UHGV virus genome: UHGV-0069399 | Source of the DNA: a virus | Length of the DNA: 49,013 nucleotides | Reading direction: 5' to 3' (one strand) | Part shown: piece by piece, positions 38,422 to 48,047 of the stretch | Numbering within the stretch: the stretch's first letter is position 1 | How the letters are laid out: each line of letters begins with the position of its first letter | Made by a program: the position numbers and the translations under genes | Notes under the pieces: model-generated | What the model saw: the letters and a program-made list of their open reading frames with translations, nothing else | Told to the model about the DNA's origin: nothing | The model's database searches: none

Positions 38422-38826
38422 TTACTTTAATTTATATATTAAACAATCCACAATATCCAAACCATTAACCATACTATTTGAAAGTCGAACTTTGCTATTT
38501 TCAATAGAGAATGCTCCTTTCATCATTTTATAAATAAAAGCAGACTCTCCTTTAGCTTCGATTGCTTCAAGTGGTATGGAATGGTATTTATTTGATCTAT
38601 TATCTCTATTGATTTGACTTATAAGGCTATAAACGAATGTAGGCCCTTTCTCCTCAAGATCACTTATTACCAAAATATATTTCCAAGAAAACATTTCCCC
38701 ATAAAAAAACCACATGGCAGCGGATAAAGCTACTCCTTTCTTCTCTAACTCTTTCATTAGAAATTGGCCAGAATTTTCCATAGAGGTCGTCATTGAGTGA
38801 CCTATTACCAGTGACTTCTTACCCAT
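38422..38826 (-). CDS. hypothetical protein (134 aa), downstream partner of the HEPN-like gene; possible degenerate minimal nucleotidyltransferase
   Basis: Very AT-rich; start overlaps the HEPN-like gene's 3' end by ~22 nt; contains a G-E-x11-S-D-L-E stretch loosely resembling the MNT G[SG]-x9-13-DxD motif. Confidence 0.6.
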   Translation of the reverse strand: MGKKSLVIGHSMTTSMENSGQFLMKELEKKGVALSAAMWFFYGEMFSWKYILVISDLEEKGPTFVYSLISQINRDNRSNKYHSIPLEAIEAKGESAFIYKMMKGAFSIENSKVRLSNSMVNGLDIVDCLIYKLK

Positions 38827-39227
38827 TGCAAAACTCCAGATTGATTATTCTCAGCTGCTTCGATGAGCTGCTCCGCCATAGCCCGACTGATAGTAGTTTC
38901 GTAGCGGAGTTGTTCACTCCAATCCTTCATAACAGTCCAAAATATTTCAAACTGCCCATCCTGGGCAGCTAATTGTCTATGTGATAGTTGTAGGCTCGCC
39001 ACCTGCATGAGCTTTGTTAGATCATGAACATGTGAGTCCATGGCTAACTTCTTGTCAGGAAATTGAAATGCCGTCACATTTTTTGCTATACATGCTTTAA
39101 GAGCGCACTCAACTGCGTATCCGCAGAGGTAGTATGCACCATGATATAATCCATTCTGTAACAGACATTTTGCTTCCGTTAACCTTATACCAGTTAAAAC
39201 TTCTAGGTCAGATTTATTCATTTGCAA
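38805..39227 (-). CDS. HEPN-like domain protein (140 aa)
   Basis: GAYYLCGYAVECALKACIAK ... HDLTKL ... RYETT pattern resembles HEPN-superfamily helices; AT-rich; first gene of an overlapping pair. Confidence 0.6.
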   Translation of the reverse strand: MQMNKSDLEVLTGIRLTEAKCLLQNGLYHGAYYLCGYAVECALKACIAKNVTAFQFPDKKLAMDSHVHDLTKLMQVASLQLSHRQLAAQDGQFEIFWTVMKDWSEQLRYETTISRAMAEQLIEAAENNQSGVLQWVRSHW

Positions 39228-39339
39228 ATATTCTAATTTTCTTTCATAGGCACATGGTACTCATTGAGTGTAATTCTTTCCAACAAATTATCAGATATAT
39301 ACGATAAAAGGTCGCTTGATCAATTTTCGGAGCTAGGAG

Positions 39340-39792
39340 CTAAATGATGTGAAGGCGCGGCTCCCCGTTTTTCGGCTCAGGCCACTGACGCTGCTTATTC
39401 ACCGCCAACTTTTCTACCATCGCCTGGTTAATCTGCTCGTCACTGATACCGGCACGACGTTGCGCATCCCATAACAGGAATTGCATGTCAGCCCATTCGC
39501 TAAGGTCGCCTGGTTCAGCAGCAGCCTCGAGTGCTTCTTTGGAAAGGTGCTTCAGCGGACCAACTGGACCGACATCGCCGAAAGTAGCCAGTGACCACGC
39601 TGCATGTTCACGGCGTACTTGTTCGCGGGCCATCGACTCCAGAACCCCATTAAACACCTTCACAGCATCAGCCATTGCGTAGCCGAGATTGCCGCCGTCG
39701 CTTTGTGCTGCTGCTTTGCTGAGTATTTCTCTTATCTGGTGCAGGCGATTGAGTGATACAGGACCGTTCGCCGGGTGGTTGTTAGTGGTCAT
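39340..39792 (-). CDS. MazG-like/DUF550-type nucleotide pyrophosphohydrolase (putative)
   Basis: Start chosen at MTTNNHP; HLSKEALEAAAEPGDLSEWADMQFLLWDAQRRAGIS resembles prophage dATP/dGTP pyrophosphohydrolase-like proteins. Moderate confidence. Confidence 0.5.
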   Translation of the reverse strand: MTTNNHPANGPVSLNRLHQIREILSKAAAQSDGGNLGYAMADAVKVFNGVLESMAREQVRREHAAWSLATFGDVGPVGPLKHLSKEALEAAAEPGDLSEWADMQFLLWDAQRRAGISDEQINQAMVEKLAVNKQRQWPEPKNGEPRLHII

Positions 39793-40100
39793 ACTGATGC
39801 TCTCCCGTAAAATGCCAGAACCCGCTTCATCGCCGGACTTGTACGGCATACTGAAGTAACCATGTTTTTTCTCATGTTCGATTTGATCTGCTTGATATTC
39901 AGTTCCCCGCCTAGTTGCAGCGAATAGACCGGGTGATGTGGCTCCCCAGCGCGAATAACTACTGCCCTACGTACCAGGTGAAGCAGCAGGTTGTGTGCTT
40001 TCTTGCAGTCGCATCCCAGCAGGTTCTGAACCTGACGCGGGGTTATGGTCTGGTTAACCCGAAGGAAATCGACAATTGCCCACAGTGATTTGCTTGCCAT
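39789..40100 (-). CDS. hypothetical small protein (103 aa), probably DNA-binding
   Basis: Basic small ORF between the DnaC-like and MazG-like genes, same operon. Confidence 0.45.
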   Translation of the reverse strand: MASKSLWAIVDFLRVNQTITPRQVQNLLGCDCKKAHNLLLHLVRRAVVIRAGEPHHPVYSLQLGGELNIKQIKSNMRKNMVTSVCRTSPAMKRVLAFYGRASV

Positions 40101-40118
40101 AGTGATTTTCCCTCGCGG

Positions 40119-40868
40119 TTATTTAACGATCCGGAGATGGCTAACGTTCTTGCGATAGCTGCCCCAGTCAAAGTTCACCCACATCCCGCCATCCATCTGG
40201 AGGCGATCGATAACCCGCGCACCCAACGCGCCGAGAAGTTCGTCGTGGTTCAGATTCGTCAGAACGCCAACCGGGCGCATTGATGACAGCCGACGGTCAA
40301 TAACCTGATTCAGAATGACTTTCTCCCCGTTGCTACCGCGCTGAATACCGACTTCATCCAGCACCAGCAGATCGACTTTGCAGAGGTCATCCAAAAGTGA
40401 AGCCTCGGATTGACCACCGTCGTAGCACTCGCGAACGCGCAGCATCAGATCAGGGATTGTCACCACCAACACAGATTGCCCACCGGACAGGAGATGATTC
40501 CCGATTGCCGCTGCCAGATGGTTTTTCCCGGTACCAGGACCGCCACTGAATACAAAACTCGCAAAGCCGGCTCCAAAGTTCTGCGCGTAGCTCTTTGCCA
40601 TGGTATAGGCCTTGCGCTGTTGCTCCCCGGACACTTCGTAGTTGGCGAACGTGCAGCTGCGGTGCAGGCTTTGAATTCCTGAGCGGCCGAAGATTTTCTC
40701 TGTGCGCGCTTTCTGATTCAGCTTGTCCAACTCTTCGCAATGTTTCAGGCCTTCTTCCCGCTGCCACGCCAGCAGCTCTGCTGCGCTGGTGAACTTCGGC
40801 TGAACGCCTGGCGGAATGAGTTTTTTCAGGCGCTCAAGAGCGCTGCCGGAATTAACAATGTTTTTCAC
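40119..40868 (-). CDS. DnaC-like replicative helicase loader (AAA+ ATPase)
   Basis: Near-collinear with E. coli DnaC: LLAWQREEG, Walker A FSGGPGTGKNHLAAAIGN, Walker B DLLVLDEVG, NQVIDRR. Confidence 0.9.
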   Translation of the reverse strand: MKNIVNSGSALERLKKLIPPGVQPKFTSAAELLAWQREEGLKHCEELDKLNQKARTEKIFGRSGIQSLHRSCTFANYEVSGEQQRKAYTMAKSYAQNFGAGFASFVFSGGPGTGKNHLAAAIGNHLLSGGQSVLVVTIPDLMLRVRECYDGGQSEASLLDDLCKVDLLVLDEVGIQRGSNGEKVILNQVIDRRLSSMRPVGVLTNLNHDELLGALGARVIDRLQMDGGMWVNFDWGSYRKNVSHLRIVK

Positions 40869-40870
40869 CG

Positions 40871-41782
40871 TTACCCCCTGAATCCGGTTGGGATGGTTTT
40901 ATCTGGCTCGGAAATGCGGTTCACATCCCTCCCCGTTTTGCGGTCGTTGAGAGCGAACTTCGGTTTGAACAGTCCCTGGTATCCGTTGGCGATACTGGTG
41001 TTGATCACATCAACCGGGTCATGCCCTTCGTCCAGGCAAGCCTTGAGCAACTTGAAAGCTTTGGTGACCGTCATTTCGGTCTTGATGGCTTTGCCAGACT
41101 GTTGGCGGTAGGCAACCCACTCATTCCAGGACACAGAATCAAGCCACTCAGGAACGGGAATCGTCAACGGGTCAAACTTACCCCTCCCCTTTGGGGGATT
41201 AGAGGGGGTTAGATCTGTATTTATATTTGTATTTGGAAGAATGTCTTTGGTGTTCCCTGTTTTCAGGGATACCTCTCCCTGTTTTTGGGGATGGTTATCC
41301 CCGTTTTCAGGGATGGTTGAATGGGTAAAATTGCTATCCCTGAATTCGGGGATGGTAATTACCCATGTAACAACTTCAGCAGCAGGAAACACCGCTGGAC
41401 ACTTCATGCAATTTGGCTTGGTATACGCCCATTTATCCAGGCTGGTATTAATCCCTATGTATCTGGTTTGCCCAATGCGGCGCAGGATGATGATGTTCCG
41501 ATAGGCAAGGCTCAACACGGCCTCAGAGACGTGCTTCACCTTCAGCGTCGTTTTATCTGCAATGAGGCTATTGGCGATGCGGTCAGAACTCTTAGACCAG
41601 CCATAGGTCAGACGAACGATAGCATTCAGCACCCGAAACTCACGCCCGGATAGTTCGACGATACACAGGGCATCCTGAATCTGGTTGGCCAGGCGCAAAT
41701 AGCCTTTCTCCAGATCAGCCATGCTGCTCTCCTGTTTCCCCTGCTGTGTGGGGAATTTGAATATTTCAGCGGTATTTGACAT
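40871..41782 (-). CDS. replication initiator, lambda O-like N-terminal domain
   Basis: From MSNTAEIFKFPTQQ: ADLEKGYLRLANQ...ELSGREFRVLNAIVRLTYGWSKSSDRIANSLIADKT matches the lambda O N-terminal domain; iteron array lies inside the gene. Confidence 0.85.
   Translation of the reverse strand: MSNTAEIFKFPTQQGKQESSMADLEKGYLRLANQIQDALCIVELSGREFRVLNAIVRLTYGWSKSSDRIANSLIADKTTLKVKHVSEAVLSLAYRNIIILRRIGQTRYIGINTSLDKWAYTKPNCMKCPAVFPAAEVVTWVITIPEFRDSNFTHSTIPENGDNHPQKQGEVSLKTGNTKDILPNTNINTDLTPSNPPKGRGKFDPLTIPVPEWLDSVSWNEWVAYRQQSGKAIKTEMTVTKAFKLLKACLDEGHDPVDVINTSIANGYQGLFKPKFALNDRKTGRDVNRISEPDKTIPTGFRG
41254..41355. repeat. iteron array (putative replication origin) inside the O-like gene
   Basis: Four ~18-bp repeats each with an internal palindrome (TCCCTGTTTTCAGGGATA, TCCCTGTTTTTGGGGATGG, TCCCCGTTTTCAGGGATGG, TCCCTGAATTCGGGGATGG) followed by an AT-rich stretch at 41214-41245. 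Confidence 0.75.
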
Positions 41783-41866
41783 ACTGTTCCCCGCAATCAC
41801 TTTCCGTTTTTGCACCTGAAGGCCGTTGGTGTTCGAGCACCGCGGCTTTCGCCATTTTTAAACCCG

Positions 41867-42406
41867 TCATACAACCCCCAGCATCAACTGCACCATCTCC
41901 ATCAGCGGACCGGTTAAGCCAGGGTCAACGCGGTACATCTCCACGATCCCCTCGCTCAGCTCTTTCAGCTTCTGATGACGCGGCGCATCCATTGCGACAG
42001 CTATCTTCGCTTCGCTGGTTTCCTTCTCCATACGTGCCAGGCGAGCCATGATGTTGTCTTCTGGCAGCAGGCGGTTGCGGTATTCAATCGGCAGAACTGC
42101 GAGGATTGCGGGAGTCAGCTGGCGAACGTTCTCGCGGTACCGCTCGCTGTTGAAATGGTTATCGAGGAAGCGGAAAAGCTTCTGGCGCTTTCGGCAGAGA
42201 TCATCAGGGAAAGTGATGTCGTCACCACCCTGCGCCTGGTACTCTTCGATGATCAGAGCAGTAACTACGTCCTGACCATCAGCACCAGCCCAGGAGCGAA
42301 CCGCATCACGAATATCTTCGTGGCTCGGCCCCCTGCGTGCTTGAGCGCGATTTATCATTACCCCTTGAGTAATATCGCTATCATTCTGATAAGTAAGTGT
42401 CTGCAT
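41867..42406 (-). CDS. YdaT-like protein (cII-position regulator)
   Basis: 179 aa between the cro-like and O-like genes; LIIEEYQAQGG and LTPAILAVLPIEYRNRLL resemble Rac YdaT as recalled. Confidence 0.55.
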   Translation of the reverse strand: MQTLTYQNDSDITQGVMINRAQARRGPSHEDIRDAVRSWAGADGQDVVTALIIEEYQAQGGDDITFPDDLCRKRQKLFRFLDNHFNSERYRENVRQLTPAILAVLPIEYRNRLLPEDNIMARLARMEKETSEAKIAVAMDAPRHQKLKELSEGIVEMYRVDPGLTGPLMEMVQLMLGVV

Positions 42407-42417
42407 GATTAAGCCTC

Positions 42418-42636
42418 CTAACGTGGCAAACCATCTGTTGGGTTTGGGTAAATATCACTACGGACCTCATGCGGAGTGATTTTCCAATCGAGTAAACGGC
42501 AAATTGGAAGCACGCGGTGCGCAGGAACCTCGTGGTTTAACCAAAGGCTGACCGCTTGAGACGTAGTGCCAAGATTTTTCGCTATTTCTGTTTGCGTCAT
42601 AACCGCACAAACACGTTGTTTAATGGAATTTGTCAT
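42418..42636 (-). CDS. Cro/YdaS-like HTH regulator
   Basis: 72 aa from ATG 42636 with GAGGG RBS; HTH QTEIAKNLGTTSQAVSLWL; divergent from the repressor gene. Confidence 0.75.
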   Translation of the reverse strand: MTNSIKQRVCAVMTQTEIAKNLGTTSQAVSLWLNHEVPAHRVLPICRLLDWKITPHEVRSDIYPNPTDGLPR

Positions 42637-42663
42637 ATGCAACCCTCGGATATTGAAATTCAA

Positions 42664-42742
42664 GATTACAACATGAAAAAAATATTTTCAATCCTGAATG
42701 AAAATAATCTTTGCAATGCGGAATGAAAGGCTACCTTGTAGA
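42664..42742. promoter_or_regulatory. divergent promoter/operator region of the immunity switch
   Basis: AT-rich intergenic region with palindromic elements (TTGAAATTCAA; TATTTTCA-N8-TGAAAATA) between the cro-like and repressor genes. Confidence 0.55.
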
Positions 42743-43162
42743 ATGGAAGACATGAAAAAAGCACCCAACGAAGCGTTTGCCTACCGACTTCAGCTCGTCA
42801 GAGATGAGTTCGGTTGGAACATGTCAGATATAGCCCGGAGAGCGATGGTTACTCCCCAGGCAGTGCAGCAATGGGCCAAAGGAGAGTCAGCTCCAAGAGG
42901 TGAGCGCTTAAAGCGTCTCGCTGCAGCTGCTGGAAAGCCCGAACATTGGTTTTTCATGCCACCAAATACCGAAGGTGAAGATGCTGGGGTGCATGAGCCA
43001 CCGCGGCAACTGGATGAAAAAGAAATCGCACTGCTTACGTTGTTCAATCAAATGCCAGAAGCTGAAAAGCTACGTTTGATAGTGCATGCCAAGGCTACCT
43101 TGAGAGAGCTTGATCTCCTCAAAGATGATGTGTCTAGCATCATTCAAAGTATTCAGAAGTAA
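42743..43162 (+). CDS. prophage repressor, HTH (XRE/RacR-like), without a LexA-type S24 autocleavage domain
   Basis: HTH (WNMSDIARRAMVTPQAVQQWAKGES) in a ~140-aa protein; no peptidase domain; divergent from the cro-like gene. Start uncertain (ORF-track 42698). Confidence 0.75.
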   Translation: MEDMKKAPNEAFAYRLQLVRDEFGWNMSDIARRAMVTPQAVQQWAKGESAPRGERLKRLAAAAGKPEHWFFMPPNTEGEDAGVHEPPRQLDEKEIALLTLFNQMPEAEKLRLIVHAKATLRELDLLKDDVSSIIQSIQK

Positions 43163-43180
43163 AATCCCCCCTTCTTTTTA

Positions 43181-43208
43181 ATGCAATCAGTCAGTTGATT
43201 GCATTTTC
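43181..43208 (+). terminator. perfect palindrome ATGCAATCA-gtcagt-TGATTGCAT + TTTT (terminator of the repressor gene or an operator)
   Basis: 9-bp perfect inverted repeat just after the repressor stop, followed by a short T-run. Confidence 0.4.
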
Positions 43209-43355
43209 ACGCCATCAATTGAAATTATTATTTTCATTTCGCTTGCATATTGCAATTTTCATTTGTATTGTTACTGACATCGACAACAAGCGCATCGTTG
43301 TCAGGTTCAAGAAACGTTCCGCCAGCCTGGCGACAAGGGCAAAGAGGGGATTGAG

Positions 43356-43556
43356 ATGCAAAACAACCACACAATACCAAACAGCGGCCGCGCAGTTGCA
43401 ATGCGTAACCAGCGCACCGGCGCAGCATGGCTGGTCTCTTTTGATTACCGCGAAAGCATGTACTGGCACGAACCGCAGGGCAACCTGCGCCACATCCGCC
43501 GCCCGTATGCTTCCCGCACCATTGAACCGAATCTGGTTCTGGCTGGTACGCACTGA
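43356..43556 (+). CDS. hypothetical early protein (66 aa)
   Basis: GAGGGGA RBS then ATG; first gene of the rightward early operon. Confidence 0.5.
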   Translation: MQNNHTIPNSGRAVAMRNQRTGAAWLVSFDYRESMYWHEPQGNLRHIRRPYASRTIEPNLVLAGTH

Positions 43557-44061: not shown

Positions 44062-46992
44062 ATGGAATTTCCATATGTAGTTAAAGCCACACAAAAGTCG
44101 GGAAAGCCTGATGCTTTTGTCTGGTTCACTGCAAAAACTGAGGCTCGCGCCAACCTGATGCTGGACGTTGCTCTGGAAGACGCTGGCATCGAAACCGGCC
44201 GTGGTAAGGACTACGCCAAGCCTATCCGCACTGACTTCCCAGTTGTTGATGACCTTCCGGAAGAAGGTGAAGTTGATTTCACCTGGTGTGATCGTTACGA
44301 ACTGCAGGACGACGGGCGCATCTGGCTGCCAAAGGCCGCTGGCGACGTTGTCACCACTATCCCTGCCGATGTAAAAAATACCGATGAAGTAGCGACATCT
44401 GACGAGAATGTATCGTTAGAAAACCGCACTCCAGCAGTCCGTTTTGCCTTCCATCTGATGAGCGATAAATACCAGACTCACGTCACTAAAGAGCAGCAGC
44501 TGGCTGCCAGCGAAATGTCACTGGACGAAAGCAATACCTATCTCCAGAACTTGCTGCAGGTTAAAAATGATGTTCCTGAAATTGGCGAACTCAGTCTGAA
44601 TGCTGAGTGGAAAATGATTCAGGCGATTAAAGACATCTTCGAACAGGGTGAAGAGCATGAACCTGAAGTGATCGCTGCTTTCATGTCTGACTGGGTGAAC
44701 GCAGAAGCAGGTGATCGCAATCAACTGGTTGAAGACTGGCGCAGTGGAAAGTTTCCTCTGCTCAAAACTGAAACCACCAGCGTTGGTGATGAAGTCGGTC
44801 CCGAAGAACAATCTCAGCAGCCAGAGCAGCCGAACCTGATCGTCGTAGCCACCCTGCCATTCCGTCAGCGCGTACTGGCTCAGTTCATCGGTAATGGTGA
44901 ATATCTCTATCACGTCGATGCCGCGCAGAAAAAAGAGATTGTCCGCCTTGAGATGGACACTGATGACACGTACATCCAGAACCTGCTGCTGGCTGCTGAG
45001 AATGTGGAGGCATTCAAAAAAGCCATTGAGCACGATATTCATAAAGTCGTGAATGCCGTTAAGAAAGTCTTCCCTGTCGACGGTAAGAAACCGGAGCTGG
45101 CAACAGTTATCCAGTTCCTGACGGTGTGGTTCAAAACTGAATACATCGATCGCGGCCTGCTGGTCAAGGAATGGCAGAAAGGCAATCGTGTAACAACCAT
45201 TAATCGCACACCTTCAGGTGCGAACGCCGGCGGCGGCATTGTCTCTGACCGAAAATTCCCGCAAACCATTCTCGGTCTGGAGCATGAGATTGCTCTGGCG
45301 TTACGTGCCCGTGACCGCGAATTTGATATTTACAACGTCCCTCTGGATATAGAACTACAGGCAAACTCCATCATGAATAAGATGGACGATCCCGAATGGC
45401 TGGCGACTCGAGAGAGATTCGTTTCAATTCCTGGTGGCCTGGACTACTCACGTGCCTGCATCATCGCAACAGTAAAAACCACACCAGAGGGGCTTTATGC
45501 TGATCCTGTAAAACACCAAGAATATTTGAATAGAGTACTTACGGAAACCGACCACGCCAACCCAGATCCATTGCTCGTTGATATAGCCTGCGGTCGTTCG
45601 TCTATGCCTGTACCTATGAAACAGGAAAAAGTAACGGCCGAAGAGGTAAACAAAATTCTTGCAGCTTCCCGCGGAGAATATGTCGAGGGGATTAGTGACC
45701 CTACAGACCCGAAATGGATCACAGAAGACCTCGCATTAACCGCCCAACAAATAGATGACCGTTCACCACTTAATAAGGAAACCACCAGCAATGTGCAGAT
45801 GGAAGAAACTGTCAGTGATGAAGAGCAGTCAGGCGAAAGCAGTCTGGAAACTGGTGAAGAGTCACATACCGGCCAGCAAGCCGATGTAAACCAGAATGCG
45901 GATTCTGTCGCCCAAAATAGCGATTTTGTAAACCAAACCGAACCGGTTGCGGCACAAATCAAGCCAGAATCTCATTCTGACGAACCGGCTGTTGTGTACC
46001 CTGCTTACTTTGAGCCAGGCCGCTATGAAGGATTGTCGAACGAGGTTTATCACGCAGCGAACGGTATCAGCTCAACCCAGGTGAAAGACGCACGTGTCAG
46101 CCTGATGTTCTATCACGGCCGTCACGTGACCAAGACTATCCGTCGCGAAAGCAGCGAGGCGCTGACGTTAGGTAGCCTGGCGCACACCCTGGCCCTGGAG
46201 CCCGAAAAGCTCCACGAAGAGTTTGCGGTATTCCCAGGTATTCCGGCTGAGGCGTTTACCACCACCGACTCCATGAAGGCGTTCATTCGAGAATTTAACG
46301 CGGATAAGCCAAAGGCCGAGCAACTGAAGCTCACCGGTAAGAAAGAAGAACTTCAGGCGGCGATACGCGCGGTCAGCCCGGAGGCCATTTTCGCTGATGA
46401 ATTTGAGCAGCAATGGCGTGATAGCGTTGATGGGAAAACCATCCTGTCCAGAGAACAACTGACGCTGGCCACGGCAATTCAGCAAGCCCTACTGAATCAT
46501 GAATCAGCCGGGAAACTGCTGCGCCATCCTTCCCGTTCAGTGGAAACCAGTTATTTCGGGATGGACGACGAAACCGGTCTGGAAGTCCGTGTGCGCCCTG
46601 ACCTTGAGGTTGAAATCAACGGCGTTCGTATCGGTGTTGACCTGAAGACGATCAGCATGGGACGCGTTAAGCAAGACGGTTTGCGCGCCAAACTGCACCG
46701 GGAAATCATCGACCGCGACTACCACCTCAGCGCTGGCATGTATTGCTCCGTTGCCGACTTTGATCAGTTCTTCTGGATCTTCGTCAACAAAGACGAGGGC
46801 TACCACTGGGTGGCGGTAATTGAGGCATCGGAAGATTTGCTCGACCTCGGGCTGCTGGAGTATCAGCGCACCATGCGTGCACTCGCAAATGCGTATGACA
46901 CCGATTGCTGGTCTGCACCGATAACCGAAGACTACACCGACGAACTGAACGACTTCGACCTGCGCTGCCTTGAAGCGCTGCGTCTGGCTTAA
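44062..46992 (+). CDS. recE: RecE-like exonuclease VIII (C-terminal PD-(D/E)xK exonuclease) with long acidic N-terminal region
   Basis: 976 aa; acidic low-complexity middle; C-terminal ~300 aa are nuclease-like; position directly upstream of the RecT-like gene as in Rac. Confidence 0.7.
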   Translation: MEFPYVVKATQKSGKPDAFVWFTAKTEARANLMLDVALEDAGIETGRGKDYAKPIRTDFPVVDDLPEEGEVDFTWCDRYELQDDGRIWLPKAAGDVVTTIPADVKNTDEVATSDENVSLENRTPAVRFAFHLMSDKYQTHVTKEQQLAASEMSLDESNTYLQNLLQVKNDVPEIGELSLNAEWKMIQAIKDIFEQGEEHEPEVIAAFMSDWVNAEAGDRNQLVEDWRSGKFPLLKTETTSVGDEVGPEEQSQQPEQPNLIVVATLPFRQRVLAQFIGNGEYLYHVDAAQKKEIVRLEMDTDDTYIQNLLLAAENVEAFKKAIEHDIHKVVNAVKKVFPVDGKKPELATVIQFLTVWFKTEYIDRGLLVKEWQKGNRVTTINRTPSGANAGGGIVSDRKFPQTILGLEHEIALALRARDREFDIYNVPLDIELQANSIMNKMDDPEWLATRERFVSIPGGLDYSRACIIATVKTTPEGLYADPVKHQEYLNRVLTETDHANPDPLLVDIACGRSSMPVPMKQEKVTAEEVNKILAASRGEYVEGISDPTDPKWITEDLALTAQQIDDRSPLNKETTSNVQMEETVSDEEQSGESSLETGEESHTGQQADVNQNADSVAQNSDFVNQTEPVAAQIKPESHSDEPAVVYPAYFEPGRYEGLSNEVYHAANGISSTQVKDARVSLMFYHGRHVTKTIRRESSEALTLGSLAHTLALEPEKLHEEFAVFPGIPAEAFTTTDSMKAFIREFNADKPKAEQLKLTGKKEELQAAIRAVSPEAIFADEFEQQWRDSVDGKTILSREQLTLATAIQQALLNHESAGKLLRHPSRSVETSYFGMDDETGLEVRVRPDLEVEINGVRIGVDLKTISMGRVKQDGLRAKLHREIIDRDYHLSAGMYCSVADFDQFFWIFVNKDEGYHWVAVIEASEDLLDLGLLEYQRTMRALANAYDTDCWSAPITEDYTDELNDFDLRCLEALRLA

Positions 46993-47006
46993 TGGAGGAT
47001 TTGACC

Positions 47007-48047
47007 ATGCAAAATACCAACATCATTACGACCGAGCAGGCACCAAACACCATTTCCGCCAGCAACGCTGTGTTCAACGTGCAGGCACTCGGCCAGCTTA
47101 CCTCTTTTGCTGAATTGATGGCGCAGTCTGTCGTCACCGTCCCCAAACACCTTGCGGGGAAACCCGCCGACTGTATGGCTATCGTCATGCAGGCTATGCA
47201 GTGGGGAATGAACCCATATGCAGTTGCCCAGAAAACACACCTGGTCAACGGTGTGCTGGGTTACGAAGCGCAGCTGGTTAACGCAGTGATCTCCAGTTCC
47301 AGCGCCATTATTGGCCGCTTCCATTACGAGTACGGCGGTGACTGGGAGAAGATCGCCGGGAAAAAAGACGGTCGTGATGAATTAGGTCTGTTTATCCGGG
47401 TTGGCGCCGTACTGCGCGGAGAAGAAGAAATTACCTGGGGCGAGCCAATCTACCTGGCAGATATCACCATACGTAACTCGCCACTGTGGAAAACAGCGCC
47501 GAAGCAGCAGATCGCTTATCTGGCAGTGAAGTACTGGGCTCGCCTGTACTGCCCAGAAGTCATCCTCGGCGTCTACAGTCCAGATGAAGTTGAGCCACGC
47601 ACTGAGAAAGAGATTAACCCGGCGCCGCAACGCGTTAGCCTGGCCGATATTTCAGGTGACACCGTCACAACCACGCAAAGCGCACAGGAATCGTCGGTAA
47701 ATATCGACTCTCTTGCCGATGATTTCCGCGAACGAATCGATGCCGCTCAGGATGTTGATAGTGCAAAAGCACTGCGCGCTGATATCGAAAGCGCGAAGGC
47801 CACACTCGGATCAGCCCTGTTCACCGAGCTGAAGAATAAGGCAGTGAAACGCTATTACCTGGTTGATTCACGTAACAAGGTTGAGGCCGCGATCAACTCC
47901 CTGCCGTCTCCGGACGAACCGGATGCAGCTGAACGGTTTGGGGAAGTTGAGCGAGTTCTTGCAACTGCGAAACGTCATCTGGGCGACGAGCTGCACGATC
48001 AGTTCAGCATCACCCTGGCGGATATGAAACCGGAATACGTTGGCTAA
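47007..48047 (+). CDS. recT: RecT-like single-strand annealing recombinase
   Basis: GGAGGA RBS before ATG 47007; coupled to recE (TAATG overlap at the ORF-track start 46992); C-terminal coiled-coil extension. Family call is positional plus general resemblance. Confidence 0.65.
   Translation: MQNTNIITTEQAPNTISASNAVFNVQALGQLTSFAELMAQSVVTVPKHLAGKPADCMAIVMQAMQWGMNPYAVAQKTHLVNGVLGYEAQLVNAVISSSSAIIGRFHYEYGGDWEKIAGKKDGRDELGLFIRVGAVLRGEEEITWGEPIYLADITIRNSPLWKTAPKQQIAYLAVKYWARLYCPEVILGVYSPDEVEPRTEKEINPAPQRVSLADISGDTVTTTQSAQESSVNIDSLADDFRERIDAAQDVDSAKALRADIESAKATLGSALFTELKNKAVKRYYLVDSRNKVEAAINSLPSPDEPDAAERFGEVERVLATAKRHLGDELHDQFSITLADMKPEYVG

What the first reader, a model, noticed from the sequence alone, without database searches (positions are those of the whole stretch)
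41214..41355. Iteron origin inside the O-like gene
Four ~18-bp repeats, each containing a TCCCTG...CAGGGA-type palindrome, are followed by an AT-rich segment, all within the coding sequence of the O-like initiator. This mirrors lambda ori and supports a functional replication module that uses a DnaC-type loader instead of lambda P.
Basis: seen in the sequence. Interest (0 to 1): 0.25.

Follow-up and report, generated by a model that had tools for sequence, protein, structure and literature searches.

The report
Lambda-type replication origin inside O gene
The four repeats are real and are very probably the replication origin of a Gifsy-like prophage, built like the phage lambda origin inside its initiator gene but paired with a DnaC-type helicase loader; this is an ordinary, well-understood design.

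Summary
Four 16-bp sites TCCCYGNNTTYRGGGA lie at 41254-41352, where 0.01 is expected by chance. They flank a 35-bp stretch of 23% G+C at 41209-41243. Everything sits in the linker of a Phage_rep_O gene (40871-41782, minus strand), and a DnaC homologue (40119-40868) follows it.

The repeat is a DNA feature, not a peptide feature. The three origin-proximal sites are read in three different codon phases. Among 15 orthologues, synonymous-codon identity is 0.97-1.00 across the origin against 0.5-0.7 elsewhere. The lattice (39, 22, 22 bp) recurs in 94 of 102 related loci, which carry 4 to 7 sites. The region aligns site-for-site with ori-lambda.

The closest named relatives are Gifsy-1, Gifsy-2 and SPN3UB, so this is a new member of a known kind.

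One extra result: the last 20 residues of this O protein match the C-terminal tail of host DnaT, and the tail type tracks the loader gene that follows. A GFRG tail precedes a DnaC-like gene in 84 loci. A lambda-O-like tail precedes a P-like gene in 2 loci. The two are never mixed. One natural chimera switches tail and loader together.

No function was tested experimentally.

The parts
40871..41782 (-). O-like replication initiator gene (303 aa; start ATG 41782 by homology with lambda O and with the RefSeq annotation of a 96.5%-identical E. coli copy). It has an N-terminal iteron-binding domain, a linker that carries the origin, and a C-terminal domain.
   Evidence: Pfam Phage_rep_O over aa 32-129 of the 314-aa ORF. 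TIGR01610 and PHROG 678. 35% identity to lambda O over the N-domain only. 75% identity to Gifsy-1 O. Annotated start taken.
41254..41269 (-). Iteron 1, next to the AT-rich block: TCCCTGAAAACAGGGA on the coding strand, codon phase 0, encodes VSLKTGN.
   Evidence: Strict match in 81 of 81 non-redundant related origins.
41276..41291 (-). Iteron 2: TCCCCAAAAACAGGGA, codon phase 2, encodes HPQKQGE.
   Evidence: Strict match in 79 of 81.
41298..41313 (-). Iteron 3: TCCCTGAAAACGGGGA, codon phase 1, encodes IPENGD.
   Evidence: Strict match in 80 of 81.
41337..41352 (-). Iteron 4, distal, 39 bp from iteron 3: TCCCCGAATTCAGGGA, codon phase 1, encodes IPEFRD.
   Evidence: Strict match in 76 of 81. Relatives carry up to three more sites upstream on the same 22-bp lattice.
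41193..41253 (-). Nearly invariant 61-bp block directly after iteron 1: ACACCAAAGACATTCTTCCAAATACAAATATAAATACAGATCTAACCCCCTCTAATCCCCC.
   Evidence: Synonymous-codon identity is 0.97-1.00 here against 0.5-0.7 elsewhere in the gene. Column conservation across 15 genera-spanning copies. The first ~35 nt align with the lambda iteron-4 / AT-rich junction.
41209..41243 (-). AT-rich core, the presumed DNA-unwinding element: 23% G+C, 49% A on the coding strand. It contains a conserved AGATCT.
41185..41208 (-). G+C-rich element on the far side of the AT-rich block, with nested dyad symmetry: CCCCCTCTAATCCCCCAAAGGGGA. It occupies the position of the 28-bp palindrome that, from my own recollection of the lambda literature, lies to the right of the lambda AT-rich region. 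Its role is unknown.
   Evidence: Sequence. The part up to ...TAATCCCCC is conserved.
40874..41191 (-). O C-terminal domain (aa 198-303). It is predicted as a three-helix bundle followed by a flexible tail.
   Evidence: AlphaFold2 with a 49-sequence alignment: helices 19-32, 39-54 and 59-68, pLDDT about 85. 1443 representatives in an exhaustive HMMER search. The domain occurs behind Phage_rep_O, DUF1376 and HTH_36/DnaD_N N-domains.
40874..40933 (-). C-terminal tail GRDVNRISEPDKTIPTGFRG, which matches the last 20 residues of E. coli DnaT ([20 protein letters not shown]). Proposed docking peptide specific for the loader.
   Evidence: Covariation with the loader gene.
40119..40868 (-). DnaC-type helicase loader gene (249 aa), 2 nt after the O stop codon.
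   Evidence: 48% identity over the full length to E. coli DnaC. PDB 6qel, 1.8e-73. NCBIfam NF009043 437.6 bits (cut-off 389); the DnaC equivalog model scores 307 bits (cut-off 357). Pfam IstB_IS21. Walker A GPGTGKN and Walker B LLVLDE are visible.
41867..42406 (-). YdaT-family gene upstream of O, in the position that cII occupies in lambda.
   Evidence: Pfam PF06254, 6.8e-26.
42418..42663 (-). YdaS/Cro-like HTH gene, the first gene of the rightward operon that reads through O. The real start is probably ATG 42636.
   Evidence: Pfam PF15943 1.1e-10 and P22_Cro 4.7e-4. Sequence.
42698..43162 (+). Divergent cI-like HTH repressor gene. The 42637-42697 gap should hold the pR-like promoter whose transcripts cross the origin; this is inferred.
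   Evidence: Pfam HTH_3, 1.2e-10. The consensus scan found no promoter in the gap at its thresholds.

Best explanation
This is the vegetative replication origin of a Gifsy-like lambdoid prophage. It is embedded in the linker-coding part of the prophage's own initiator gene.

Proposed mechanism:
1. Shown only by homology: dimers of the O N-terminal domain bind the four dyad-symmetric iterons (consensus A-TCCCYG-AAAA-CRGGGA-T), three of them on a 22-bp lattice and one 39 bp further out.
2. Inferred from lambda: the resulting O-some, on A-tract-bent DNA, destabilises the adjacent 35-bp AT-rich block at 41209-41243.
3. Inferred here from covariation: the O C-terminal domain then recruits host DnaB through the phage DnaC-type loader, not through a lambda P protein. 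Its last ~20 residues, which match the DnaT tail, act as the loader-specific contact.
4. Inferred from gene order: transcription from the cro-side promoter crosses the origin, as in lambda.
For: Chance is excluded: 4 sites against 0.01 expected.

The repeat is a DNA-level feature:
- The three proximal iterons are read in phases 0, 2 and 1 and give unrelated peptides.
- Among 15 orthologues, synonymous-codon identity is 0.97-1.00 over aa 158-197 against 0.5-0.7 elsewhere. Amino-acid identity there (0.76-0.90) is lower than in the N-domain.
- The 61-bp post-iteron block is nearly invariant across Salmonella, Citrobacter, Leclercia, Kluyvera, Enterobacter, Yokenella and Pseudescherichia.

Conservation:
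- The final spacings are 39, 22, 22 in 94 of 102 loci, which carry 4-7 sites.
- Slots 1-4 are strict matches in 76-81 of 81 non-redundant origins.
- More distant O genes keep the design with other iteron sequences, for example TTCCCGAAAACGGGAA every 21 bp in L022.

Homology to ori-lambda: the four iterons align one-to-one, and the iteron-4 / AT-rich junction is largely identical (lambda annotation).

Context: Phage_rep_O initiator, a DnaC homologue immediately downstream, and the least stable DNA inside any coding sequence of the neighbourhood.

Loader pairing:
- GFRG tail followed by a DnaC-like gene in 84 loci.
- Lambda-O-like tail followed by a P-like gene in 2 loci.
- No mixed case.
- The O of L015 is 80% identical to the window's over aa 1-278. 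It then switches to a lambda-O-like tail (11 of 17 identical to lambda O 281-297) and is followed by a protein 46% identical to lambda P.

Literature: lambdoid origins lie in the middle of O as iterons plus an AT-rich tract, with 4 or 6 iterons (PMC7466680). The O C-terminal region binds P, and the last five residues of lambda O are essential (PMC6022878).
Against: - No experiment was done: O binding, unwinding and autonomous replication are all untested for this element. I found no paper in the held library that describes the Gifsy-type origin.
- Eleven related loci have the GFRG tail but no loader gene next to O (junction shown). So the phage DnaC copy may be dispensable, or those prophages may be defective.
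- The tail/loader covariation rests on few independent events. It could partly reflect hitch-hiking of the 3' end of O with the adjacent gene.
- The simple promoter scan found no pR-like promoter.
Confidence: 0.85

Rival explanations
1. The repeats reflect a repeated peptide motif in the O linker (a protein-level repeat), and the DNA symmetry is incidental.
For: Iterons 3 and 4 are in the same phase and both encode IPExxD.
Against: Iterons 1, 2 and 3 are in three different phases and encode VSLKTGN, HPQKQGE and IPENGD. The DNA is more conserved than the protein in this region, with synonymous identity near 1.0 and amino-acid identity of 0.76-0.90. The 22-bp period is not a multiple of 3.
Confidence: 0.02
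2. The palindromes act as RNA hairpins in the O mRNA, as an antisense terminator, or as DNA cruciforms, and are not protein-binding iterons.
For: Each site can fold as a hairpin. The consensus scan flags a terminator-like hairpin plus T-run on the plus strand at 41264-41281, formed by two neighbouring sites.
Against: At the variable arm pair (positions 5 and 12), the non-pairing combination C..A is the commonest (186 of 403) and the Watson-Crick C..G is the rarest (10 of 403). This is the opposite of what stem selection predicts. No Rfam family matches. The number of terminator-like hits is no higher than in shuffles. The invariant AT-rich block next to the sites is not explained.
Confidence: 0.03
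3. The array is a genuine O-binding array, but in this element it is a relic or a regulatory site (autoregulation, or copy-control handcuffing) and not an active origin. The prophage may be defective, or may start replication elsewhere.
For: Activity is untested. Some close relatives lack the loader gene. Iterons of plasmids also act in negative control (general knowledge; discussed in PMC6118388).
Against: The O and dnaC-like ORFs are intact. The origin block is under strong purifying selection across genera, which would be unexpected for a relic. The same module is found in Gifsy-1, Gifsy-2 and SPN3UB, which I know as viable phages; this viability rests on my own knowledge and was not checked here. 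The pattern search found no second iteron cluster in the window.
Confidence: 0.1

Closest known systems
ori-lambda within gene O of phage lambda (and of 434 and the Stx phages)
   Same: - The origin sits in the linker-coding middle of a Phage_rep_O gene.
- Four dyad-symmetric iterons with a central A-tract are followed, in the direction of O transcription, by an A-rich, AT-rich block.
- The iterons align one-to-one and the iteron-4 / AT junction is largely identical.
- Iteron number varies among relatives, 4-7 here against 4 and 6 in lambda and the Stx phages (PMC7466680).
   Different: - The iteron core is 16 bp (TCCCYG-AAAA-CRGGGA) against 17 bp in lambda (TCCCTC-AAAAC-GAGGGA).
- The lattice is a strict 22 bp with one 39-bp step, against 20, 24 and 23 bp in lambda.
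- The O N-domain is only 35% identical, and the C-domain has no detectable similarity to that of lambda O.
- The element to the right of the AT block is different.
- The loader is DnaC-type, not P.
Replication modules of Salmonella phages Gifsy-1, Gifsy-2, SPN3UB and FSL SP-016
   Same: Same module: O is 75% identical, the DnaC-like protein is about 86% identical, and the iteron type, AT block and gene order are the same.
   Different: - These phages carry six iterons (3+3) and a 22-residue longer linker; the window has four (3+1).
- Upstream, the window carries YdaS/YdaT-family regulators. At the nucleotide level the match to Gifsy-1 does not extend past the iterons. The Gifsy-1 genes are annotated as Cro and CII analogues, and I did not compare those proteins with the window's.
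E. coli dnaT-dnaC operon (primosomal protein DnaT plus the loader DnaC)
   Same: - Same gene order: a protein ending in ...RDVNxxSEPDxxIPxGFRG, followed within 2-3 nt by a DnaC-family gene.
- The tails match in about 13 of the last 18 residues.
- The loader proteins are 48% identical.
   Different: - The DnaT N-terminal domain is absent; an iteron-binding O domain takes its place.
- Similarity of the helical bundle to DnaT 84-153 is only suggestive and the fold search does not confirm it.
- DnaT acts at abandoned forks through PriA/PriB and not at a sequence-specific origin (PMC13377028).
DopC/DopE (domesticated lambda O/P-like pair; PMC5509034)
   Same: An O-type N-terminal domain is fused to a DnaT C-terminal motif.
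   Different: DopC is reported to lack iterons and is paired with a P-like protein (PMC5509034). Here iterons are present and the partner is DnaC-like.

Membership tests
Lambda-type origin inside an O-type initiator gene | Array of at least 3-4 directly repeated, internally dyad-symmetric sites of about 16-19 bp (iterons) | tested here: met
   Four sites against 0.01 expected by chance.
Lambda-type origin inside an O-type initiator gene | Located within the initiator gene, in the segment between the N- and C-terminal domains | tested here: met
   The sites fall in codons 144-177 of 303. The Pfam N-domain ends about 20 codons before them and the predicted C-domain starts at about aa 198.
Lambda-type origin inside an O-type initiator gene | AT-rich, easily melted block directly downstream of the iterons in the direction of O transcription | tested here: met
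   41209-41243, 23% G+C, among the 0.5% least stable stretches of the window.
Lambda-type origin inside an O-type initiator gene | Initiator carries the Phage_rep_O N-terminal DNA-binding domain | tested here: met
   PF04492 98.3 bits (cut-off 28.7). TIGR01610 93.1 bits (cut-off 45.5).
Lambda-type origin inside an O-type initiator gene | DNA-level constraint and conservation of the sites in relatives, independent of coding | tested here: met
Lambda-type origin inside an O-type initiator gene | Initiator binds the iterons; the AT block unwinds; the fragment supports replication | not testable with these tools
   Needs EMSA or footprinting, KMnO4 probing and a replication assay.
Lambda O-P module in the strict sense | Helicase loader is a lambda P homologue encoded directly after O | tested here: not met
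   The next gene is DnaC-type. tblastn with lambda P finds a P-like gene next to O only in L015 and L022, not in the window.
DnaC/IstB AAA+ helicase loaders | Full-length similarity to DnaC, including the N-terminal DnaB-binding segment and Walker A/B motifs | tested here: met
   aa 6-243 match DnaC 3-241 (PDB 6qel, 1.8e-73), and the N-terminal fragment 6kza also matches. GPGTGKN and LLVLDE are visible.
DnaC/IstB AAA+ helicase loaders | Reaches the NCBIfam equivalog cut-off for DnaC itself | tested here: not met
   NF005931 scores 307 bits against a cut-off of 357. The protein does pass the sister subfamily NF009043, 437.6 against 389. It is therefore a phage-type paralogue, not the host orthologue.
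DnaT (primosomal protein) | Conserved C-terminal peptide ...RDVNxxSEPDxxIPPGFRG | tested here: met
   hhalign probability 94%, E = 9e-8 for a single pairwise comparison. PDB 2ru8, 6aep and 9zbt match with E of about 0.006-0.02 using the profile.
DnaT (primosomal protein) | Three-helix-bundle ssDNA-binding C-terminal domain homologous to DnaT 84-153 | tested here: inconclusive
DnaT (primosomal protein) | DnaT N-terminal oligomerisation domain | tested here: not met
   The N-terminus is a Phage_rep_O domain. The NCBIfam DnaT model matches only residues 279-303. This protein is not a DnaT.

The most novel reading that the evidence does not exclude
The conserved C-terminal peptide shared by this O protein and host DnaT (...RDVNxxSEPDxxIPxGFRG) may be the element that docks the DnaC (or DnaC-DnaB) complex. 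If so, phage initiators of several DNA-binding classes (O-type, DUF1376/YdaU-type, HTH_36-type) and the host restart primosome would recruit the loader through the same short tail. Swapping the tail for a lambda-O-type tail would re-target the same initiator to a P-type loader, as in the natural chimera L015. This would give a concrete, testable answer to how DnaT hands over to DnaB/DnaC, a step that PMC13377028 states is still unknown and tentatively assigns to the DnaT N-domain.
Probability: 0.3. Interest if true: 0.55.

Novelty: new member of a known kind. Interest (0 to 1): 0.25.

Why it matters
For the finding as stated, it matters little. It locates the origin of one more lambdoid prophage and confirms that the textbook design, with the origin inside the initiator gene, extends to the Gifsy-type module that uses a DnaC-type loader. 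That is useful for annotation: the 61-bp block and the iteron lattice are good markers for this origin type across Enterobacteriaceae. It is also useful for building replicons.

The by-product has more potential. A short DnaT-like tail on the initiator tracks the type of helicase loader, and a natural tail-plus-loader swap exists. Together these offer a simple genetic handle on how initiators, and perhaps DnaT, recruit DnaC-DnaB.

Tried and rejected
- Single-sequence AlphaFold2 of the whole O protein gave pLDDT 34 and was unusable.
- The word-indexed protein search with the C-domain returned only 15 close fragments. The exhaustive search was needed to get diversity.
- The promoter scan found nothing convincing in the gap between the repressor and cro-like genes, and only a weak plus-strand hit inside the iterons, no better than in shuffles.
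- Rfam at gathering thresholds found no family anywhere in the window.
- There are no DnaA-box-like 9-mers (at most 1 mismatch) in 40000-43300 and only one GATC in the origin, so DnaA or SeqA involvement is not suggested.
- I wondered whether the residue before GFRG (P, as in host DnaT) marks loci that lack a phage loader. I dropped this: P also occurs in 12 loci that have a DnaC-like gene.
- The plasmid collection holds only two 42-45 kb Salmonella records with the whole module. These are probably circular phage genomes and are not evidence of plasmid maintenance.
- Literature searches for a description of the Gifsy-type origin, or of a DnaT-like tail on phage initiators, found nothing in the held library. 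Weigel and Seitz 2006 is not held.

Full report
OBSERVATION

A search for TCCCYGNNTTYRGGGA finds sites at 41254-41269, 41276-41291, 41298-41313 and 41337-41352 and nowhere else in the 49 kb window. Dinucleotide-preserving shuffles give a mean of 0.01. The repeat finder reports the same family with start-to-start spacings of 22, 22 and 39 bp.

On the coding (minus) strand the sites read, distal to proximal:
- TCCCCGAATTCAGGGA
- TCCCTGAAAACGGGGA
- TCCCCAAAAACAGGGA
- TCCCTGAAAACAGGGA

Directly after the last site comes a 35-bp stretch of 23% G+C and 49% A (41209-41243). It is among the 0.5% least stable 40-bp stretches of the window. Within 39000-43500 only the stretches at about 39208-39270 and 42648-42673 are equally unstable, and I read both as lying between genes.

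All of this lies inside ORF 40871-41782 on the minus strand.

THE HOST GENE AND ITS NEIGHBOURS

The ORF is an O-type initiator. It matches Pfam Phage_rep_O at 3.8e-28 over the N-terminal third, TIGR01610 at 1.1e-26, and PHROG 678 'replication initiation O-like' over the full length. It is 35% identical to lambda O over the N-terminal 170 residues only.

Two nucleotides after its stop codon begins a 249-aa DnaC homologue:
- 48% identical to E. coli DnaC over the full length.
- PDB 6qel at 1.8e-73, with the N-terminal DnaB-binding fragment 6kza also matched.
- Above the cut-off of NCBIfam subfamily NF009043, but below the cut-off of the DnaC equivalog model.

It is therefore a phage-type paralogue of DnaC.

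Upstream lie a YdaT-family gene, a YdaS/Cro-like gene and a divergent HTH repressor gene. Downstream lie a Ren-like gene and a dATP/dGTP pyrophosphohydrolase gene. The rest of the window looks like a lambdoid prophage, with recE and recT on the other side of the repressor gene.

THE REPEAT IS A DNA FEATURE, NOT A PEPTIDE FEATURE

1. Reading frame. The 22-bp period is not a multiple of three. The three proximal sites are read in phases 0, 2 and 1 and encode VSLKTGN, HPQKQGE and IPENGD.
2. Synonymous sites. In a codon alignment of 15 orthologues from several genera, identity of synonymous codons is 0.97-1.00 for residues 158-197, against 0.5-0.7 elsewhere in the gene. Amino-acid identity in the same stretch (0.76-0.90) is lower than in the N-domain, where it is about 1.0.
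3. The flanking block. The 61 bp after the last iteron, ACACCAAAGACATTCTTCCAAATACAAATATAAATACAGATCTAACCCCCTCTAATCCCCC, are almost invariant, while the flanking codons show ordinary third-position change.
4. Arm pairing. At the one variable arm pair of the palindrome, the non-pairing combination C..A is the commonest (186 of 403 sites) and C..G the rarest (10 of 403). This argues against selection for an RNA or cruciform stem and fits two degenerate half-sites read by a protein dimer.

RELATIVES

The closest deposited phages are Gifsy-1, Gifsy-2, SPN3UB and FSL SP-016. They match at about 80% nucleotide identity from the dnaC-like gene through the iterons, and Gifsy-1 O is 75% identical at the protein level. 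These phages carry six iterons (3+3) where the window has four (3+1).

Scans of one genome per species and of IMG/VR added 98 loci.
- In 94 of 102 loci, counting the window, the last three spacings are 39, 22, 22.
- Strict iteron counts are 4 (39 loci), 5 (17), 6 (37) and 7 (4).
- In 81 non-redundant origins, the four slots present in the window are strict matches in 81, 79, 80 and 76 cases.
- The short and long forms differ by a 66-bp (3 x 22) indel, as expected from unequal exchange between repeats.
- More distant O genes keep the architecture with other site sequences. L022, whose O is 37% identical, has TTCCCGAAAACGGGAA every 21 bp.

Only 4 of 5426 complete E. coli genomes carry this O gene. 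The best matches are in a Citrobacter genome and in IMG/VR contigs.

COMPARISON WITH ORI-LAMBDA

The annotated lambda origin aligns collinearly with the window. The four iterons correspond one-to-one, with 19 extra bases between the window's sites 4 and 3. The stretch from the last iteron into the AT-rich block is largely identical.

Differences:
- The core is 16 bp against 17 bp in lambda.
- The inner arm base differs: TCCCYG/CRGGGA here against TCCCTC/GAGGGA in lambda.
- The lattice differs.
- To the right of the AT block there is a G+C-rich element with nested symmetry. From my own recollection of the lambda literature, lambda has a 28-bp palindrome at that position.

The literature held here describes the lambdoid origin exactly in these terms: iterons plus an AT-rich tract in the middle of O, four iterons in lambda and six in Stx phages, and O binding as dimers (PMC7466680, PMC6022878).

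MECHANISM

- By homology, O dimers bind the iterons and the O-some destabilises the AT-rich block.
- By gene order, transcription from the cro side crosses the origin.
- The helicase is delivered by the DnaC-type loader and not by P.

THE C-TERMINUS OF O AND THE LOADER

The C-terminal domain of O (aa 198-303) has no Pfam model, yet it has 1443 representatives in an exhaustive search. It occurs behind Phage_rep_O, DUF1376 and HTH_36/DnaD_N N-domains. With a 49-sequence alignment it is predicted as a three-helix bundle followed by a flexible tail.

The last 20 residues, GRDVNRISEPDKTIPTGFRG, match the last 20 of E. coli DnaT, [20 protein letters not shown]. The gene pair O-dnaC mirrors the host dnaT-dnaC operon. 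A wider profile aligns collinearly with DnaT 80-179, but fold searches did not retrieve DnaT. Homology beyond the tail is therefore unproven.

Across the 102 loci:
- A GFRG tail is followed by a DnaC-like gene in 84.
- A GFRG tail is followed by no loader gene in 11.
- A GFRG tail is cut off by a contig end in 1.
- A lambda-O-like tail is followed by a P-like gene in 2.
- The O gene is frameshifted or truncated in 4.
- There is no mixed case.

The informative case is L015 (Citrobacter sp. FP75). Its O is 80% identical to the window's over residues 1-278, with the same four iterons. It then switches to ...KPDLDFNNTDWAYEV, which is 11 of 17 identical to lambda O 281-297. The next gene encodes a protein 46% identical to lambda P.

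In lambda, the C-terminal region of O is the P-binding part and the last five residues are essential (PMC6022878). I therefore infer that the extreme tail is the loader-matching element. This rests on few independent events, and hitch-hiking with the neighbouring gene is an alternative.

DnaT's C-terminal domain filaments on ssDNA, and how DnaT recruits DnaB/DnaC is stated to be unknown (PMC13377028). Removing DnaT residues 154-179 only modestly weakens ssDNA binding (PMC4132743).

RIVALS

- A peptide repeat is excluded by the frame analysis.
- RNA, terminator or cruciform roles are disfavoured by the arm statistics, by the absence of an Rfam match and by the unexplained AT block.
- A relic or purely regulatory array cannot be excluded without experiments. 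It is unlikely given intact genes and strong cross-genus constraint.

VERDICT

This is a new member of a known kind, a Gifsy-type lambdoid origin, and not a new system. Interest is low for the origin itself. The tail/loader covariation is a modestly interesting by-product. No binding or replication function has been shown.

Noticed in passing
L003 3640-4090 (E. coli PSJ-22); also L026-L030, L047, L052, L060, L065, L086: Eleven close relatives have an intact O gene with iterons and the GFRG tail but no DnaC-like (or P-like) gene after it. In L003, homology to the window stops exactly at the O stop codon and a DUF977 gene follows. Either these prophages rely on host DnaC or they are replication-defective.
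   Followed up: partly
L015 2501-4086 (Citrobacter sp. FP75): A natural chimera. Its O is 80% identical to the window's over aa 1-278, with the same four iterons. It then carries a lambda-O-like tail and is followed by a lambda-P-like loader gene (46% identical to lambda P).
   Followed up: yes
window 40874-41191 (O C-terminal domain): This domain has no Pfam model, yet it has 1443 representatives at E of 1e-3 or better. It is attached to at least three different N-terminal DNA-binding domains (Phage_rep_O; DUF1376, the domain I recall in Rac YdaU; HTH_36/DnaD_N). It looks like a shuffled loader-recruiting module.
   Followed up: partly
window 38422-39227, minus strand: A HEPN-domain ORF (38805-39227, Pfam 2.9e-6) overlaps by 22 nt a 134-aa ORF with no family match (38422-38826). 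The pair lies a little downstream of the replication genes, beyond the Ren-like and pyrophosphohydrolase genes. It may be a toxin-antitoxin or defence moron.
   Followed up: no
window 41212-41217: AGATCT, which contains the only GATC of the origin, sits inside the AT-rich block. It is conserved in almost all relatives (one locus has ATATCT). Its significance is unknown; a Dam site is one possibility.
   Followed up: no
window 41185-41208: A G+C-rich element with nested dyad symmetry (CCCCCTCTAATCCCCCAAAGGGGA on the coding strand) lies on the far side of the AT-rich block. Part of it resembles a shortened iteron (TCCCCC-AAA-GGGGA). The segment up to TAATCCCCC is conserved at the DNA level.
   Followed up: partly
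window 42418-43162 and 44062-48047: The immunity region is Rac-like: YdaS and YdaT family genes, with RecE-family and RecT genes on the other side of the repressor gene. The replication genes are Gifsy-like. This is ordinary lambdoid mosaicism, with a junction near the start of O. mEp237 matches 41751-42313 at 89%.
   Followed up: partly
plasmid records OX345036.1 and OX345446.1 (hits H19, H20): Two 42-45 kb Salmonella records filed as plasmids carry the whole O-dnaC module at 79% identity. They are probably circular Gifsy-like phage genomes and not true plasmids.
   Followed up: no
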